A stretch of 64,000 bases of DNA from Stylophora pistillata (Eukaryota), in contig NW_019218018.1 of assembly GCF_002571385.2 (NCBI RefSeq), positions 359,257 to 423,256 on the forward strand. The letters run 5' to 3'. Made by a program: the position numbers and the translations under genes. Shown in pieces: positions 18,639-24,750 of this stretch. The notes under the pieces are model-generated. The model saw only the letters and a program-made list of their open reading frames with translations, had not been told where the DNA came from and searched no databases. The number at the start of each line of letters is the position of its first letter. The stretch's first letter is position 1.

Positions 18639-19208
18639 TTAAAGTCCTCGAAAACCCACATCGGGAGATATGACTTTGTAATAGTAGTCACAGCATCCTT
18701 CGTTTTCATATGAACTAGCAAATCTTAGCTCATTGGCTTCGTCGATTGTCTTGATTCGCTTGTCATTTGAACATGGCAGACACCTGGTGGACAGCTGTAG
18801 TCTCTCTCTCTCTCTCTCTCTCTTGGCGACACGACCTGTGCTCGGCTGAGATTTCCCGATAGCAGTAAGAACCATTTGCTTCAACATCATTTTGGTTTTA
18901 CGGGCCCACATTCCTGGTGGACAATTTTCAACGTCTCGTTTGTTTTTAAAAGAGGAGTCCATGGATTCTATGTTCATTTTCAGAGCCCTTTTATTAAAGA
19001 AAAGGACAGCGGCACCGGAGATATCTCGCCATCCATCTCCAACCTCTGACCGCTTTTCAGTTTGACAGCTCCAGACTCCAGGAGGGCAAGCCTCAGAATC
19101 GTGTCGAGTCGCTGATAGTTTTACTTTCCGCTTGATATCGATGAGGCCGGCAAGAGCCAACTGAATGGAACAGACAGTAAAAATGACAAAAGTAGCAAAA
19201 AAGTTCAT
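18639..19208 (-). CDS. Secreted CPPGxWxC peptide precursor, copy 1 (189 aa, one intact cassette)
   Basis: Intronless ORF from ATG 19208. Signal peptide MNFFATFVIFTVCSIQLALA. Cassettes SEACPPGVWSCQTEKR, KRDVENCPPGMWAR (second Cys lost) and a third that is frameshifted. Clearly paralogous to 21845-22570. Confidence 0.8.
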   Translation of the reverse strand: MNFFATFVIFTVCSIQLALAGLIDIKRKVKLSATRHDSEACPPGVWSCQTEKRSEVGDGWRDISGAAVLFFNKRALKMNIESMDSSFKNKRDVENCPPGMWARKTKMMLKQMVLTAIGKSQPSTGRVAKRERERERLQLSTRCLPCSNDKRIKTIDEANELRFASSYENEGCCDYYYKVISPDVGFRGL

Positions 19209-21844
19209 TTCCAAATTGGGTAAAGGTATCGACGAAGCAACGATTTTAACAACCTTCTAATGCTTGATCATTATCTGCTCAATGGAATGTTACTTTCGGT
19301 TCAATGGATCTTTCATGATCTTTTTATTGACGGACCACAGCCGGGCTCCGAAACGTGAAATTCATTCCATATCACCAAAAGCTGCGTCCACCTCCTTAAA
19401 ATGTTCTTTAGTAATAATAAAAATTTGAAACACTCAATTGGAAAGGTGCGCAATCTTTACGTATGAAAAAAAAAACTAGAAACACAATGCGAATTTGTTG
19501 AACGAAGGCTGTGACAACTCGGCTAGCTTAGAGAAATATCAAACTGTGTCGAAACTGATCCGGCGTTGCTTTGTTTTTGCTTTATTTCGTTATGTGGTTT
19601 GTCCAGAATACTCGTTCTACTGTCTCAACAAATCAGATTTGAATCTCAAACCAATTGAATTTGATACTCGCGTTTTTTTCCCGTGCTTCAGGAAGTTTGC
19701 ATGTTTTTACTTCGAGTACTCATTGGCTCCTGGTGATGTTTTCCTTCTTACTTTTGTTCCTAACTTAGTCATCCACGTGTTTGAATAAAGGTTTGTCTAC
19801 CTTTATTGTTATCTGTGTAGTTTTATTTCACGCTTTAAAGCCGGCTGGGGAATTCCACATCGCCAACAGCTGCGATCTTTTCTTGAATGTGTTGGAATAT
19901 TAAGCCTCAAGCAATGTTCACGACGGAGAAAAAGGTTAAATGGTTCAGGAGAAGCCCTGAAGAAAAAAAATTCAATTTTTCAATCACTGAACCAGCCTAC
20001 GAAAAACTGCTAAATTACATTCCACGTACAGTAAAACATTGCTGAATTCGATGATCCATTTTTTTTTTTTTTTGGTATTCGGACTCATCTTTATGGATAC
20101 TGATTAGTCACAGTCCGTTACAACTTTTTTTTCATAAAAAAGCACATGTAATGAAACATGCGTTGCAAATGAAGGGGGAAGGGGGGGGGGGCAAAAACTA
20201 CAAACACGGAAAGGCTTATTATTTGACAGCGGCTTCCCGAGGAACTTTGTATCGGCCGCGGCCACCCATGAAACATGGCGGGAAAATTAAATATTGTAAA
20301 CACAAAAAATATATAGAAAATACAGAATTCACACTTTTTTCGTGGAGTAGATAGAGATTGATTCCTGGTGATATTTTGCAAATTCTGGAGCATTTATAGT
20401 CACTCAAAGGTCCAAAACTTTGGAAATATTTTTCCTTTCATCAAATGCATGGTCCGGATTTTTAATAGTGACGACTTTTAATGGTAAAAACCATTGTTAA
20501 AATTAAAAAAAGATCCAGTTTGTATGACTAGATACCTCTTTTTTCATTTTTGTTATGGGAAATACCAAATATGGTCGTGGTTCAAACCATATAAAGGGGG
20601 CATGAATCGAACAAACTTGACCAACTGTGATGCCCGCCAGGGTCAAGGAACCGAAGTTAAGGGGGTTGTGAAGTTGTCCTTAGCAAGTCCTTAGCAAGTC
20701 CTTAGTACAGACTTGTACCCTCCTTATCACGGCTGAAAGGGCAGTGCAGTGTTGACCCTAATCAACTCATGCAGCTTCACAGGAAGATGAAATCAGCCAT
20801 GTGAACACGCTGTAAAAGCTTAAAAGAAACAGATTTACATCAGCATTTGAGGTTGATATAAAACGTGTTCTTTATTCGTAAATAATTTCAGCGGCAACTG
20901 TGGACAATTTATGCGTAGTGATTTGAGAACGTGCTTTAATTCTTACATATTATTAATAAAATGATATCAAGAGAATATAAGGTGACACGTATTACCTTTT
21001 AAGTCAATAAGTTTTATTTTTGGCTCGTTAGTATTCACATTTTCGATTATTCGGCTCTTAATTAACCAGACTATTCATTCCTCAAGAGTCCAAATAATTG
21101 AGAATCGACTGTATCTTTCTTGAAAGAAATTATTATAATTTTAAATGAAGTTCAACACAGATGCTCTCATATAAACATATCAAAACGTGGCTATAACAAC
21201 AGAAAGAGGATTACAGACATGGTTTCAATATCCCATTTATTCATGATTTCATCCTTGTTTAACCCTGGGGACTAGGTGCACTGTACGTGTGTTTTGTCGG
21301 ACTAAACTAGTGCTCCATTCAGAAAATAACCAGTTTTGTAAAAAACTCTTTTAATTATCCTCCATTAAAAAACGCGCGCTTATATATACTCAGTTTAAAA
21401 TATAATATGCTAGTAGTCTGGGGTATATACAATCTCTTACATCTGTAGCATTTAAAGTATCTTACAGCAGACTCAGTTCAAGTATTAAATCTCAAAGAAA
21501 ACAAATGCAGCAATAATTATACATTTTAACTCGATTTTGAGTCCTAGTTCAGTTTTAAGGTTTGATAACTCATCTTCAATGTTCAGGTCAAGGTATATAT
21601 AAAGGTAAATTCAAGCAGGTAAAAAAATTCCAAGTCTCAATAACAGACTTCTATTGATAAAATGAAATGAATCCTTATATTTACAACATCTCTTCGGAAG
21701 AATTGGCACTAACTGTAACAATTCGGGTTAAATTCTTCGAAAACCAACCTACGCAGATATCACTTTGTAGTTAGTCGCTGCATCATTTTATGTTAACGGG
21801 AAATTTTCAGTAATCAGTCTTGGCTCTTGGCATTGTTGTTTGTC

Positions 21845-22570
21845 TTAAATCGCCTGTCGGTTGACCATGGCCATTGACCAGAAACCTGGTGGACATGCGT
21901 GTCTGATGTCTCTTTTGGCTACACGACCTTTACTCTGCTGAGATTTCTTGACAGCCGTACTTCGCATTTGTTTTAACGTCATCTTCTTTTTACAAGCCCA
22001 CATTCCTGTCGGACAATTTTCAACGTCTCGTTTGCTTTTAAAAGAAGACTCCTTGGATGTCACGTTAATGTTAGAAGTCCCTTTAACCGGGAAAAGTGCA
22101 GCAAAATAATTATTTGTCCTAGGGACACTGCGTGCTACTATGCCATTTTTAGAATGCTTTTCAGCTGAACATGACCAAACCCCCGGTGGACATGCGTGGT
22201 TGGCGTCTCTTTTGGCCACACGAAGTATACTCTGCTGAGAGTTTTTTCCATCTGTATCAACATGTAACATCACGTTCTTTTCACAAGCCCACACTCCTGG
22301 CGGACAATTTTTAATGTCTCGTTTGCTTTTAAAAGAGAAGTTCATGGATCCTATGTTCATTTTGAGAGCCATTTTTACAGGGAAAAGGGCGGCATCAAAG
22401 GTATCCCTCGATCGCTTTCCAGTCTGACAGCTCCAGACTCCCGGAGGACAAGCCTCGGAATCGTGTCGAGTCGCTGATAGTTTTACTTTCCTCTTGATAT
22501 CGATGACGCCGGTACGAGCCAACATAATGGAACAGACAATAAAAATAACAAAAGTAACAAAAAGGTTCAT
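21845..22570 (-). CDS. Secreted CPPGxWxC peptide precursor, copy 2 (241 aa, five cassettes; GLWamide-like cyclic peptide prepropeptide)
   Basis: Intronless ORF from ATG 22570 with a hydrophobic signal peptide. Cassettes CPPGVWSC(QTGKR), CPPGVWAC, CPPGVWSC, CPTGMWAC(KKK), CPPGFWS. Four are preceded by KR-D. Internal DNA repeat period is about 291-297 nt. Confidence 0.88.
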   Translation of the reverse strand: MNLFVTFVIFIVCSIMLARTGVIDIKRKVKLSATRHDSEACPPGVWSCQTGKRSRDTFDAALFPVKMALKMNIGSMNFSFKSKRDIKNCPPGVWACEKNVMLHVDTDGKNSQQSILRVAKRDANHACPPGVWSCSAEKHSKNGIVARSVPRTNNYFAALFPVKGTSNINVTSKESSFKSKRDVENCPTGMWACKKKMTLKQMRSTAVKKSQQSKGRVAKRDIRHACPPGFWSMAMVNRQAI

Positions 22571-23855: not shown

Positions 23856-24213
23856 GCTTCCCCTAAAATTTTGAAATTCGGCCGCGAGGACGTCACTTTC
23901 TCAAAGTTTGATAATTTGCTGTGAGCGTATATAATGACACCCTTCTAAACATCCCTCGAATAGTTGACCGAGACTCTAAAAACATCAGATTGACTCTTGT
24001 TTACGGCACTAATATTCAAGCATTGTTACAGATATTACACTTCCGCTGTTTGTAAATATAGTGAAAGTTATTGGCGTGTTTCGCTTTGAGGCTCAGCTGT
24101 GTATCATCAATAAAAGGTCTTCGATCCATGGACTAGCAAGTACTTCGATTGAAAGACAGAAAACCAATCATTACAAGTTTTTCACGAATTGAGACGTTGA
24201 TATAAATCTGAAA

Positions 24214-24750
24214 ATGAACTTCGTTATTGTTCTAATTTTATTGAATGATTTTATTCACTTGGCCCGTGCTGGCCTTAACAGTGATAAAATGAAGGTATCA
24301 ACAACTGAGGACGATTCTTGTCGTCTAGGGGTCTGGACCTGCCCACCTGAAAAGCGATCAAAACTGGCAGGAAGAGCATCTTGGGATACCACTGGTGCTA
24401 AAGAGTTCTTCGTTGAGAAACCCCTTATTATGGCCAAGGCATTCAAGGACTCTTTTCGTTTAGAAAACGCAGCAGACACTGAAAATTACCCAACAGAAAT
24501 GTGGACTCATAAAAAGAAAATGAGGTTAAAGCAGATGCTATGGACAGCTGTCAGGAAATCTCAGCAGAGTAAAGGTCGCGTGGCCAAAAGAGACACCAAC
24601 CGCGCGTCTCCTTCAGGGGTCTGGTCATGTTCAGCTGAGAAGCAATCTAAAATTGGCATAGTGTCACGTAGTATCCCTAGAACAGAGGATTTTTTTTCAA
24701 CAACCTATCGACGTGCGGCGGGATCTTATCCCCCAATCTGGACACGGTAA
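24214..24750 (+). CDS. Secreted peptide precursor, copy 3 (178 aa, diverged cassettes, possibly decaying)
   Basis: Signal peptide MNFVIVLILLNDFIHLARA. Cassettes CRLGVWTC(PPEKR), YPTEMWTH(KKK), SPSGVWSC. Spacer KSQQSKGRVAKRD is identical to copy 2. Homology to copy 2 stops near 24697. Confidence 0.72.
   Translation: MNFVIVLILLNDFIHLARAGLNSDKMKVSTTEDDSCRLGVWTCPPEKRSKLAGRASWDTTGAKEFFVEKPLIMAKAFKDSFRLENAADTENYPTEMWTHKKKMRLKQMLWTAVRKSQQSKGRVAKRDTNRASPSGVWSCSAEKQSKIGIVSRSIPRTEDFFSTTYRRAAGSYPPIWTR

What the first reader, a model, noticed from the sequence alone, without database searches (positions are those of the whole stretch)
18639..24750. Three-gene cluster of secreted precursors for putative disulfide-cyclised CPPGxWxC peptides (GLWamide-like, expanded and diversifying)
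Seen: three intronless paralogous ORFs within about 6 kb (two on minus, one on plus). Each has a signal peptide and 3-5 cassettes of a C-x6-C motif (CPPGVWSC, CPPGVWAC, CPTGMWAC, CRLGVWTC) set in spacers that end in KR. Established: signal peptide plus repeated motif plus dibasic sites is the cnidarian neuropeptide/toxin precursor design, and PPG[LV]W is the core of cnidarian GLWamide/Wamide peptides, which regulate larval metamorphosis. From memory, to be verified, a cyclic CPPGLWGC-type 'GLW-like' peptide has been predicted in Nematostella. Inference: this is a lineage-specific multi-copy family in which the Wamide core is locked in an 8-residue disulfide ring rather than amidated at Trp. 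It could be a signalling system or a neuropeptide recruited to a toxin or defence role. A domain-based annotation would probably list these as hypothetical proteins.
Basis: partly seen in the sequence, partly recalled or inferred. Interest (0 to 1): 0.88.

Follow-up and report, generated by a model that had tools for sequence, protein, structure and literature searches.

The report
Coral ring-peptide genes, partly decaying
Three neighbouring coral genes encode repeated eight-residue cysteine motifs and likely release small disulfide-closed signalling peptides of a kind already seen in the sea anemone Nematostella; they sit in an expanded coral branch, predicted to add a short amidated tail, and two of the three copies here have lost most of their motifs.

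Summary
The three intronless ORFs are real and at the stated places, but '3-5 cassettes each' is not: intact C-x6-C rings number 1 (A), 4 (B) and 1 (C); the rest are degenerate or out of frame, and an independent DNA run shows the same sequence. They are not GLWamides: no Trp is followed by an amidation signal. The ring-peptide kind is known: Nematostella NvLWamide-like/GLWG, GLWL (receptor GPR18a), CCa, and two unnamed precursors seen by mass spectrometry with a disulfide. This genome (gene B matches a protein labelled Stylophora pistillata) holds eight such genes in two clusters; the NvLWamide-like orthologue is on another contig. A, B and C fall in a separate 46-row clade, tandemly multiplied in several stony corals, whose typical cassette is ring + two residues + G-KR, predicting an amidated tail. 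B keeps one such signal; A and C have none. Rings change more slowly than spacers, as in signalling peptides and unlike typical toxins. Transcription evidence is weak: RNA contigs cover B and C, but three raw runs show almost no reads. Verdict: new variant of a known neuropeptide kind in birth-and-death evolution; not found in my literature searches; function untested.

The parts
18639..19208 (-). Gene A ORF, 189 aa: signal-like N-terminus, one intact ring, two damaged cassettes
   Evidence: DNA run X9 shows the same frame
19065..19088 (-). A ring 1, CPPGVWSC, followed by QTE-KR (no amidation Gly)
18900..18923 (-). A cassette 2, CPPGMWAR, second Cys lost; the natural allele P0003 has Cys here
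18801..18822 (-). (GA)11 microsatellite in A; the third cassette remnant (about 18771-18793) behind it is out of frame and lacks an intact Trp codon
21845..22570 (-). Gene B ORF, 241 aa: signal-like N-terminus, four intact rings, internal duplication, truncated fifth cassette
   Evidence: 100% identical over 92% of its length to P0002
22412..22450 (-). B ring 1 with tail, CPPGVWSC-QT-G-KR: predicted ring peptide with an amidated two-residue tail
   Evidence: amidation is inferred from the Gly-dibasic rule
22283..22306 (-). B ring 2, CPPGVWAC (no dibasic site close behind)
22169..22192 (-). B ring 3, CPPGVWSC (no dibasic site close behind)
21992..22015 (-). B ring 4, CPTGMWAC, followed directly by KKK and the conserved basic spacer
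21872..21895 (-). B cassette 5, CPPGFWSM, no second Cys; a small insertion relative to A follows
24214..24750 (+). Gene C ORF, 178 aa, sister of a Pocillopora-type gene group; one atypical ring, three broken cassettes
24319..24342 (+). C ring 1, CRLGVWTC, followed by PPE-KR
24487..24630 (+). C cassettes 2 (YPTEMWTH) and 3 (SPSGVWSC), Cys lost; the basic spacer between them is kept
22694..22699 (-). CAGCTG box ahead of an A-rich TATA-like element upstream of B; A has CGGCTG at the matching place
   Evidence: any regulatory role is conjecture
24094..24099 (+). Matching CAGCTG box upstream of C
16436..16912 (-). Displaced 3' flank of A, 71% identical to the 3' flank of B: the A/B duplication included flanks
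16997..18462 (.). Array of 247-bp repeats with a tRNA-Thr-like core (with an assembly gap) lying inside A's 3' flank

Best explanation
These are tandem DNA-level duplicates with repeated CPPG-x-W-x-C motifs that likely encode neuropeptide-type precursors, predicted to be secreted, cut at basic sites and closed by one disulfide per motif, and they would then signal through a peptide GPCR. Shown: ORFs, motifs, paralogy including flanks, membership of a 46-row clade distinct from the NvLWamide-like gene, slower change in rings than in spacers, and loss of most cassettes in A and C. Shown only in Nematostella relatives: processed peptides with a disulfide, and a GPCR for one CPPGLWLC peptide. Inferred: B is the likeliest working copy here, releasing an amidated ring (CPPGVWSC-QT-amide) and a free-acid ring (CPTGMWAC); A and C are decaying; the cluster is in birth-and-death turnover while the gene on contig C4 keeps the conserved GLWG signal.
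For: Design: hydrophobic N-terminus, repeated rings, KR/KK sites; the X-P-P start after an acidic residue fits the cnidarian N-terminal cleavage rule of PMC11087051 section 5. Relatives P0033 and P0035 are NVE21426 and NVE5329, whose peptides were detected by LC-MS/MS with both Cys carrying the half-disulfide mass shift, graded 'uncertain' or 'poor' by the authors. The GLWL peptide with a CPPGLWLC core and a tail activates GPR18a at EC50 9e-7 M. Selection: B's four rings pooled pN 0.136, pS 0.659, against spacer pN/pS 0.57-1.02 in 6 segment pairs; the C4 gene has pN 0.000, pS 0.674. 13 of 15 listed members of the cluster of C's Pocillopora-type relative keep four intact rings. Tree: A+B sisters (99), C with the Pocillopora-type rows (98), all in a clade of 46 (98) with Oculina and Desmophyllum genes. 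Ring-xx-G-K/R occurs in 24 of 25 outer rows of that clade (50 of 78 rings) and in 2 of 18 rows of the inner group holding A, B, C (43 of the 46 rows counted). RNA contigs: X1 (RNA guessed) covers 21341-22118 and 22383-22610 without mismatch; X6 (PolyA on record) has pieces of B's 5' end, B's 3' flank and C.
Against: Three raw RNA runs (1.4-1.9 Gb read each) give depth 0 on A and B and 0.24 in one bin at C's start, although neuropeptide precursors are usually highly expressed; no control gene was laid, so sensitivity is unknown. X2 covers intergenic DNA as evenly as the genes and so proves nothing; X1 and X3 are RNA only by guess. Two of B's four rings have no near C-terminal dibasic site, and the spacers are basic (net +11 per 100 aa in B against -2.7 in the C4 gene), unlike typical neuropeptide spacers. 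No peptide, cell type or receptor is shown for any coral member. Linear and disulfide GLWL gave equal GPR18 signals in the screen, so the ring may not be needed for signalling, and GLWG/GLWGcc is not among the deorphanised pairs. The tree is a quick one on repeat-rich sequences (199 of 959 columns). The codon counts are small and uncorrected.
Confidence: 0.68

Rival explanations
1. All three window copies are dying duplicates that make no meaningful peptide; the function rests on genes D and E, 100-125 kb away, and on the C4 genes.
For: A and C have each lost most cassettes; B has a broken fifth cassette; almost no raw RNA reads; C's cassettes show pN/pS 0.55-0.57, near its spacers; a repeat array splits A's 3' flank.
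Against: All three frames stay open from the signal peptide for 178-241 codons; B keeps four rings with synonymous excess; PolyA contigs of B and C exist; C's Pocillopora-type relatives are intact in 13 of 15 listed members.
Confidence: 0.17
2. The clade was recruited from neuropeptides to defence: secreted ring peptides or the conserved cationic spacer act as toxins or antimicrobials.
For: Tandem multiplication and turnover in several corals (five Oculina genes ACROYT_G001998-002003; several members on single contigs). A basic K-Q-M-L spacer (net +6 to +10 in most hits) is found in 39 of 86 proteins and survives where the ring before it is broken. A cone-snail venom-duct peptide, GCPPGLWC-amide, has the same core as the cnidarian CCa ring (PMC12631695 passages).
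Against: Rings are the slowest-changing part, not the fastest, whereas accelerated change of the mature region is usual in venom gene families (general knowledge). The spacer's hydrophobic moment is low in A and B (0.14, 0.10; background mean 0.23). No toxin or antimicrobial Pfam family is hit. The nearest studied relative marks neurons (10.1101/145623, abstract in listing).
Confidence: 0.12
3. They are GLWamide paralogues that act on GLWamide receptors to control larval metamorphosis.
For: The PPG-[VLM]-W core is shared with coral PPGLWamides (PMC7523074 passages).
Against: None of the cassettes has Trp-Gly-basic, so no Trp-amide can form; PMC6152798 makes the same distinction for NvLWamide-like. 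A shared origin with GLWamide was not tested: my pattern search did not find the GLWamide gene.
Confidence: 0.03

Closest known systems
Nematostella precursors NVE5329 and NVE21426 (unnamed; PMC11087051 Supplementary file 1)
   Same: C-x6-C rings CPPG[IV]W[VT]C of two alternating types, varied spacers, basic stretch after the I/M-type ring; one ring in NVE21426 has a short tail + G + basic site; peptides seen by MS with a disulfide.
   Different: Outside the 46-row clade in the tree; not in the tested peptide library; genes D or E may be the nearer orthologues.
NvLWamide-like / GLWG precursor (Nv242283, NVE21167)
   Same: Signal peptide plus repeated C-P-P-G-[VL]-W-x-C; non-amidated Trp; disulfide form seen by MS ('uncertain' grade).
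   Different: Gly at ring position 7, a dibasic site directly after every ring, acidic spacers, near-identical repeats; its orthologue here is the C4 gene with 11 CPPGVWGC.
Nematostella GLWL peptide and receptor GPR18a
   Same: C-x6-C ring with the PPG-L-W core and a C-terminal extension; shows that such a peptide can activate a GPCR.
   Different: Leu at position 7 and a six-residue free-acid tail; modest potency; no CPPGLWLC codon match in this genome; its precursor sequence was not visible to me.
CCa precursor (CPPGLWC-amide; NVE15666)
   Same: CPPG-L-W core closed by a disulfide, multi-copy precursor; an orthologue with 7 copies lies on C4 about 100 kb from the GLWG gene.
   Different: Seven-residue ring amidated at the Cys; not in the window.
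GLWamide / Wamide family
   Same: PPG-[LV]-W core and multi-copy precursor design.
   Different: Linear, Trp-amidated, no Cys.

Membership tests
GLWamide / Wamide | C-terminal G-[LV]-W followed by Gly and a basic cleavage site (Trp-amide) | tested here: not met
   0 of 6 intact rings and none of the damaged cassettes
GLWamide / Wamide | Signal peptide and repeated cassettes | tested here: met
   hydrophobic N-termini by hydropathy only
GLWamide / Wamide | Promotes larval metamorphosis | not testable with these tools
   needs a bioassay
NvLWamide-like / GLWG | C-x6-C ring with PPG-[VL]-W core | tested here: met
   4 of 6 rings have PPG-V-W; one has PTG-M-W, one RLG-V-W
NvLWamide-like / GLWG | Gly at position 7 and dibasic site directly after the ring | tested here: not met
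   0 of 6 have Gly7; 1 of 6 is followed directly by basic residues
NvLWamide-like / GLWG | Orthology to NVE21167 | tested here: not met
   the C4 gene groups with it (92); A, B, C lie in another clade
Hexacoral CPPG-x-W-(x)-C ring-peptide precursors (GLWG, GLWL, CCa, NVE5329/NVE21426) | Signal peptide plus repeated Cys-bounded PPG-x-W core with basic cleavage sites | tested here: met
   P0033 finds P0002 at E 3e-16
Hexacoral CPPG-x-W-(x)-C ring-peptide precursors (GLWG, GLWL, CCa, NVE5329/NVE21426) | Processed peptide with intramolecular disulfide | not testable with these tools
   reported only for Nematostella members
Hexacoral CPPG-x-W-(x)-C ring-peptide precursors (GLWG, GLWL, CCa, NVE5329/NVE21426) | Transcribed | tested here: inconclusive
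   contigs of B and C in RNA sets; almost no reads in 3 raw runs, no control gene
NVE5329/NVE21426 subfamily | Supported orthology | tested here: inconclusive
   unresolved at the base of the tree
Cnidarian peptide toxins / contryphan-like peptides | Fast-changing mature region | tested here: not met
   rings change less than spacers in the 5 of 6 segment pairs where the ratio could be computed; in the sixth the cassette had no synonymous change (small counts)
Cnidarian peptide toxins / contryphan-like peptides | Expression in cnidocytes or gland cells and toxicity | not testable with these tools
   no cell-type data reachable
Transposon ORF | Transposase, RT or other mobile-element domains | tested here: not met
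   no Pfam hit above cut-off; 6 protein matches in the genome, all precursor genes

The most novel reading that the evidence does not exclude
Stony corals have their own multiplied peptide signalling system: a disulfide ring with a short amidated tail (CPPGVW[ST]C-xT-amide), an independent arrival at the ring-plus-amidated-tail design of oxytocin-type hormones, co-released with a conserved cationic spacer peptide. It grew by tandem duplication beside gene D, turns over quickly, has mostly shed the amidated tail in the pocilloporid group, and acts on a still-orphan GPCR in a coral-specific process such as settlement or polyp coordination.
Probability: 0.3. Interest if true: 0.65.

Novelty: new variant of a known kind. 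Interest (0 to 1): 0.42.

Why it matters
Coral neuropeptide catalogues are built on linear amidated peptides; the hexacoral survey I searched has no CPPG peptide in its main text. This genome holds eight Cys-ring precursor genes, so a sizeable part of coral peptide signalling may be uncatalogued and hidden as hypothetical proteins; here the gene model even fuses B and A. The conserved ring-xT-amide gives a concrete synthetic ligand for GPCR screens and larval assays. The gene NvLWamide-like is a widely used neuron marker whose peptide still lacks a receptor in the screen I read. The window cluster itself is the least conserved corner of the family, which limits its own importance.

Tried and rejected
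Pfam: no family above cut-off for A, B, C, the C4 gene or two relatives. Assembly error as the cause of the broken tails: rejected, DNA run X9 agrees. The annotated 393-aa fusion of B and A (P0002) needs a splice from about 21865 into A; contigs X1 and X3 run through or up to that place into B's own 3' flank with no such joint listed, so the fusion is unsupported, though both runs are RNA only by guess. A has no cover in X1, X3 or X6, which is no proof of silence. X2 was set aside as DNA-like. Runs with small word shares that I did not lay (X4, X5, X7, X8, X13) are not used. The 11 scattered matches of the loose pattern: 8 translated, all in short frames of 22-105 aa with no precursor look; the other 3 repeat one of those 24-mers. 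Search for the GLWamide gene by pattern gave 1 non-precursor hit against 3 control hits, so linkage to GLWamide is untested. Amphipathic-helix reading of the basic spacer: mean moment 0.36 against a background 95th percentile of 0.47, and low in A and B; not adopted. Earlier findings of this scan: none. The language-model atlas gave no result. Gene neighbourhoods in other corals were not seen, so conserved linkage rests only on accession numbers and contig lengths. A GPR18a orthologue was not looked for in this genome. No fold was run: short disordered precursors would not give a useful model.
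Full report
Observation. The three ORFs are at the stated coordinates: A 18639-19208 (-), B 21845-22570 (-), C 24214-24750 (+). 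They share 65-78% DNA identity, and A and B also share upstream and downstream flanks (77% and 70-71%), so they arose by DNA duplication. The motif is far beyond chance: 17 genome matches against 0 for the control. The cassette count is overstated. Intact C-x6-C rings are 1, 4 and 1. A has lost a Cys in cassette 2, and its third cassette is out of frame behind a GA microsatellite. B's fifth cassette lacks Cys2. C's one ring has lost both prolines and its other three cassettes lack Cys. An independent DNA contig set covers all three ORFs without gaps. A natural allele of A (P0003) has cassette 2 intact and reads in the other frame past the microsatellite to a third cassette without Trp, so A's tail varies between individuals.

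Organism and annotation. B is 100% identical over 92% of its length to P0002, labelled hypothetical protein AWC38_SpisGene12914 of Stylophora pistillata; that record's contig length equals that of C235. The model joins B to A by a splice; contigs laid give no such joint.

The family in this genome. Searches of G000 and 319 kb of fetched DNA give eight ring-peptide precursor genes. On C4, within about 105 kb: a CCa gene (7 x CPPGLWC-G-KK), a second seven-residue-ring gene (8 rings), and a GLWG gene (11 x CPPGVWGC, each followed by KR or KK). On C235: D (254.4 kb, 3 rings), E (277.4 kb, 1 ring plus a damaged one), and A, B, C (378-384 kb). Counts are lower bounds.

Relatives. Protein searches found 21, 34 and 53 proteins. 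Named ones are from Pocillopora damicornis and P. meandrina, Desmophyllum pertusum, Oculina patagonica (five genes numbered 001998-002003) and Nematostella; most are unnamed, so the taxonomic limit is open. A quick ML tree of 77 rows (13 rows with seven-residue rings, and P0001, P0002, P0048, P0075, left out; 199 of 959 columns) puts A and B as sisters (99), C with the Pocillopora-type rows (98), and all three in a clade of 46 rows (98) with the Oculina genes and Desmophyllum OS493_033743. The GLWG genes form another group, D groups with Desmophyllum OS493_033765, and the Nematostella pair is unresolved at the base. The two Desmophyllum genes have close numbers and the same longest-contig length, a weak hint that D and the A/B/C type have long been neighbours.

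Cassette anatomy. The clade alternates a V-type ring, CPPGVW[ST]C, with an M-type ring, CPPGMW[AV]C. Of 43 clade rows counted, 24 of 25 outer rows carry ring + two residues + G + K/R (50 of 78 rings), which predicts an amidated tail; in the inner group that holds A, B, C only 2 of 18 rows do (3 of 52 rings), B being one. NVE21426 has a similar signal on one ring. The M-type ring is followed by a basic spacer with a K-Q-M-L core, found 51 times in 39 of 86 proteins, also where the ring is broken. In the window, short peptides with a near C-terminal dibasic site are A1, B1, B4 and C1; B2 and B3 would come out longer, if at all.

Selection. Rings change less than spacers: A vs B first ring pN 0, pS 0.40; B's four rings pooled pN 0.136, pS 0.659; spacers pN/pS 0.57-1.02; C's cassettes 0.55-0.57; the GLWG gene pN 0.000. 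Counts are small and uncorrected. 13 of 15 listed members of the 290-member cluster related to C keep four rings, while C itself has lost them. This reads as past purifying selection on rings with relaxation in A and C.

Expression. Thirteen runs hold words of B, 3 on record as RNA. Three raw RNA runs of the same species label show depth 0 on A and B and 0.24 in one bin at C's start, while repeats between the genes are covered; no control gene was laid. Among contig sets, X1 (RNA guessed) covers most of B and 500 bases of 3' flank; X3 (guessed) B's 3' part and C's end; X6 (PolyA) short pieces of B and C; X1 and X6 stop at 22610 and 22606, just upstream of B's ATG, a weak hint of a transcript start; X2 looks like DNA. 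So B and C are probably transcribed at a low level or in few cells or stages; this is not proven.

What is known. PMC6152798 (passages) states that NvLWamide-like is predicted to release QCPPGLWGC, not GLWamides. PMC11087051 (passages, section 5, and supplements: files 22 and 26 whole; files 1-12, 21, 23, 27 searched; file 25 gave no text) lists MS peptides with half-disulfide shifts for NVE21167, NVE5329 and NVE21426, graded uncertain or poor; its library held GLWG, GLWL (linear and cyclic) and CCa; GLWL activates GPR18a at 9e-7 M, both forms giving equal screen signals; GLWG and CCa are not among the listed pairs. P0033 and P0035 match the NVE21426 and NVE5329 sequences printed there. PMC7523074 (passages) has no CPPG peptide in its main text; PMC6909153 (passages) describes other cyclic peptides. 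PMC12631695 (passages) describes a cone-snail GCPPGLWC-amide. For 10.1101/145623 I saw the start of the abstract; a term search found nothing. Main-text searches for the coral motifs gave 0 papers; searches listed no description of this clade (one search showed 20 of 29, 20 of 41). Supplements of other papers and subscription journals were not searched and may name it.

Mechanism and verdict. Most likely: secretion, cleavage at basic and X-P-P sites, one disulfide per cassette, amidation of B's first tail, and action on a peptide GPCR (0.68). All steps after the sequence are inferred from relatives. Rivals: all three copies are dead or dying (0.17), defence recruitment (0.12), true GLWamide function (0.03). 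It works like the known hexacoral ring neuropeptides, fails membership of GLWamide and of the GLWG orthogroup, and represents an expanded coral variant that I did not find described. Interest 0.42.

Noticed in passing
G000:C4:1037689-1048230 and 1140171-1140980 (L063, L064, L074): Three well-conserved ring-peptide precursor genes within about 105 kb: 7 x CPPGLWC-amide, a non-amidated seven-residue-ring gene with alternating CPPGLWC and CP[TV]GLWC, and 11 x CPPGVWGC. Better candidates for functional work than the window genes.
   Followed up: partly
G000:C235:254398-254772 and 277448-277831 (L046, L048): Genes D and E: two more eight-residue-ring precursors, each ending with the ring at the very C-terminus, as does Nematostella NVE21426.
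   Followed up: partly
G000:C4:1037833-1038473 (L063): The CCa peptide CPPGLWC-amide is the same ring as the cone-snail venom-duct peptide Be828 (GCPPGLWC-amide, PMC12631695): convergence, mimicry or a shared old neuropeptide.
   Followed up: no
window 58023-63477 (-): Exons of a proprotein convertase (P-domain, furin-like repeats), an enzyme class that cuts peptide precursors, about 35 kb from the cluster; may be coincidence.
   Followed up: partly
window 16997-18462: 247-bp tandem repeats with a tRNA-Thr(AGT)-like core, identical copies, opposite orientation on the two sides of an assembly gap; very high depth in DNA and RNA runs.
   Followed up: partly
window 23060-24023: High-copy repeat between B and C, well covered in RNA runs; not identified.
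   Followed up: no
window 34323-35702 and 38200-39909 (+): Two BTB/BACK/Kelch genes in tandem.
   Followed up: partly
window 53274-53678 (+); 29267-29352 (-): Ras-family GTPase exon; a tRNA-Leu(CAG) call.
   Followed up: no
window 22694-22699, 24094-24099, and about 19337-19342: A CAGCTG box precedes B and C and is changed in A, matching the pattern of RNA contig cover; that such boxes bind achaete-scute factors is recalled, and NvLWamide-like is described as an NvashA target (abstract).
   Followed up: no
proteins P0057, P0060, P0065, P0074, P0076, P0079, P0080: Further ring-peptide precursor types from unnamed sources (RQNPx-CPPG[VI]W[SH]C, CPPGYWC, CPPGIWTC-DE), so the superfamily is wider than the groups treated here.
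   Followed up: no
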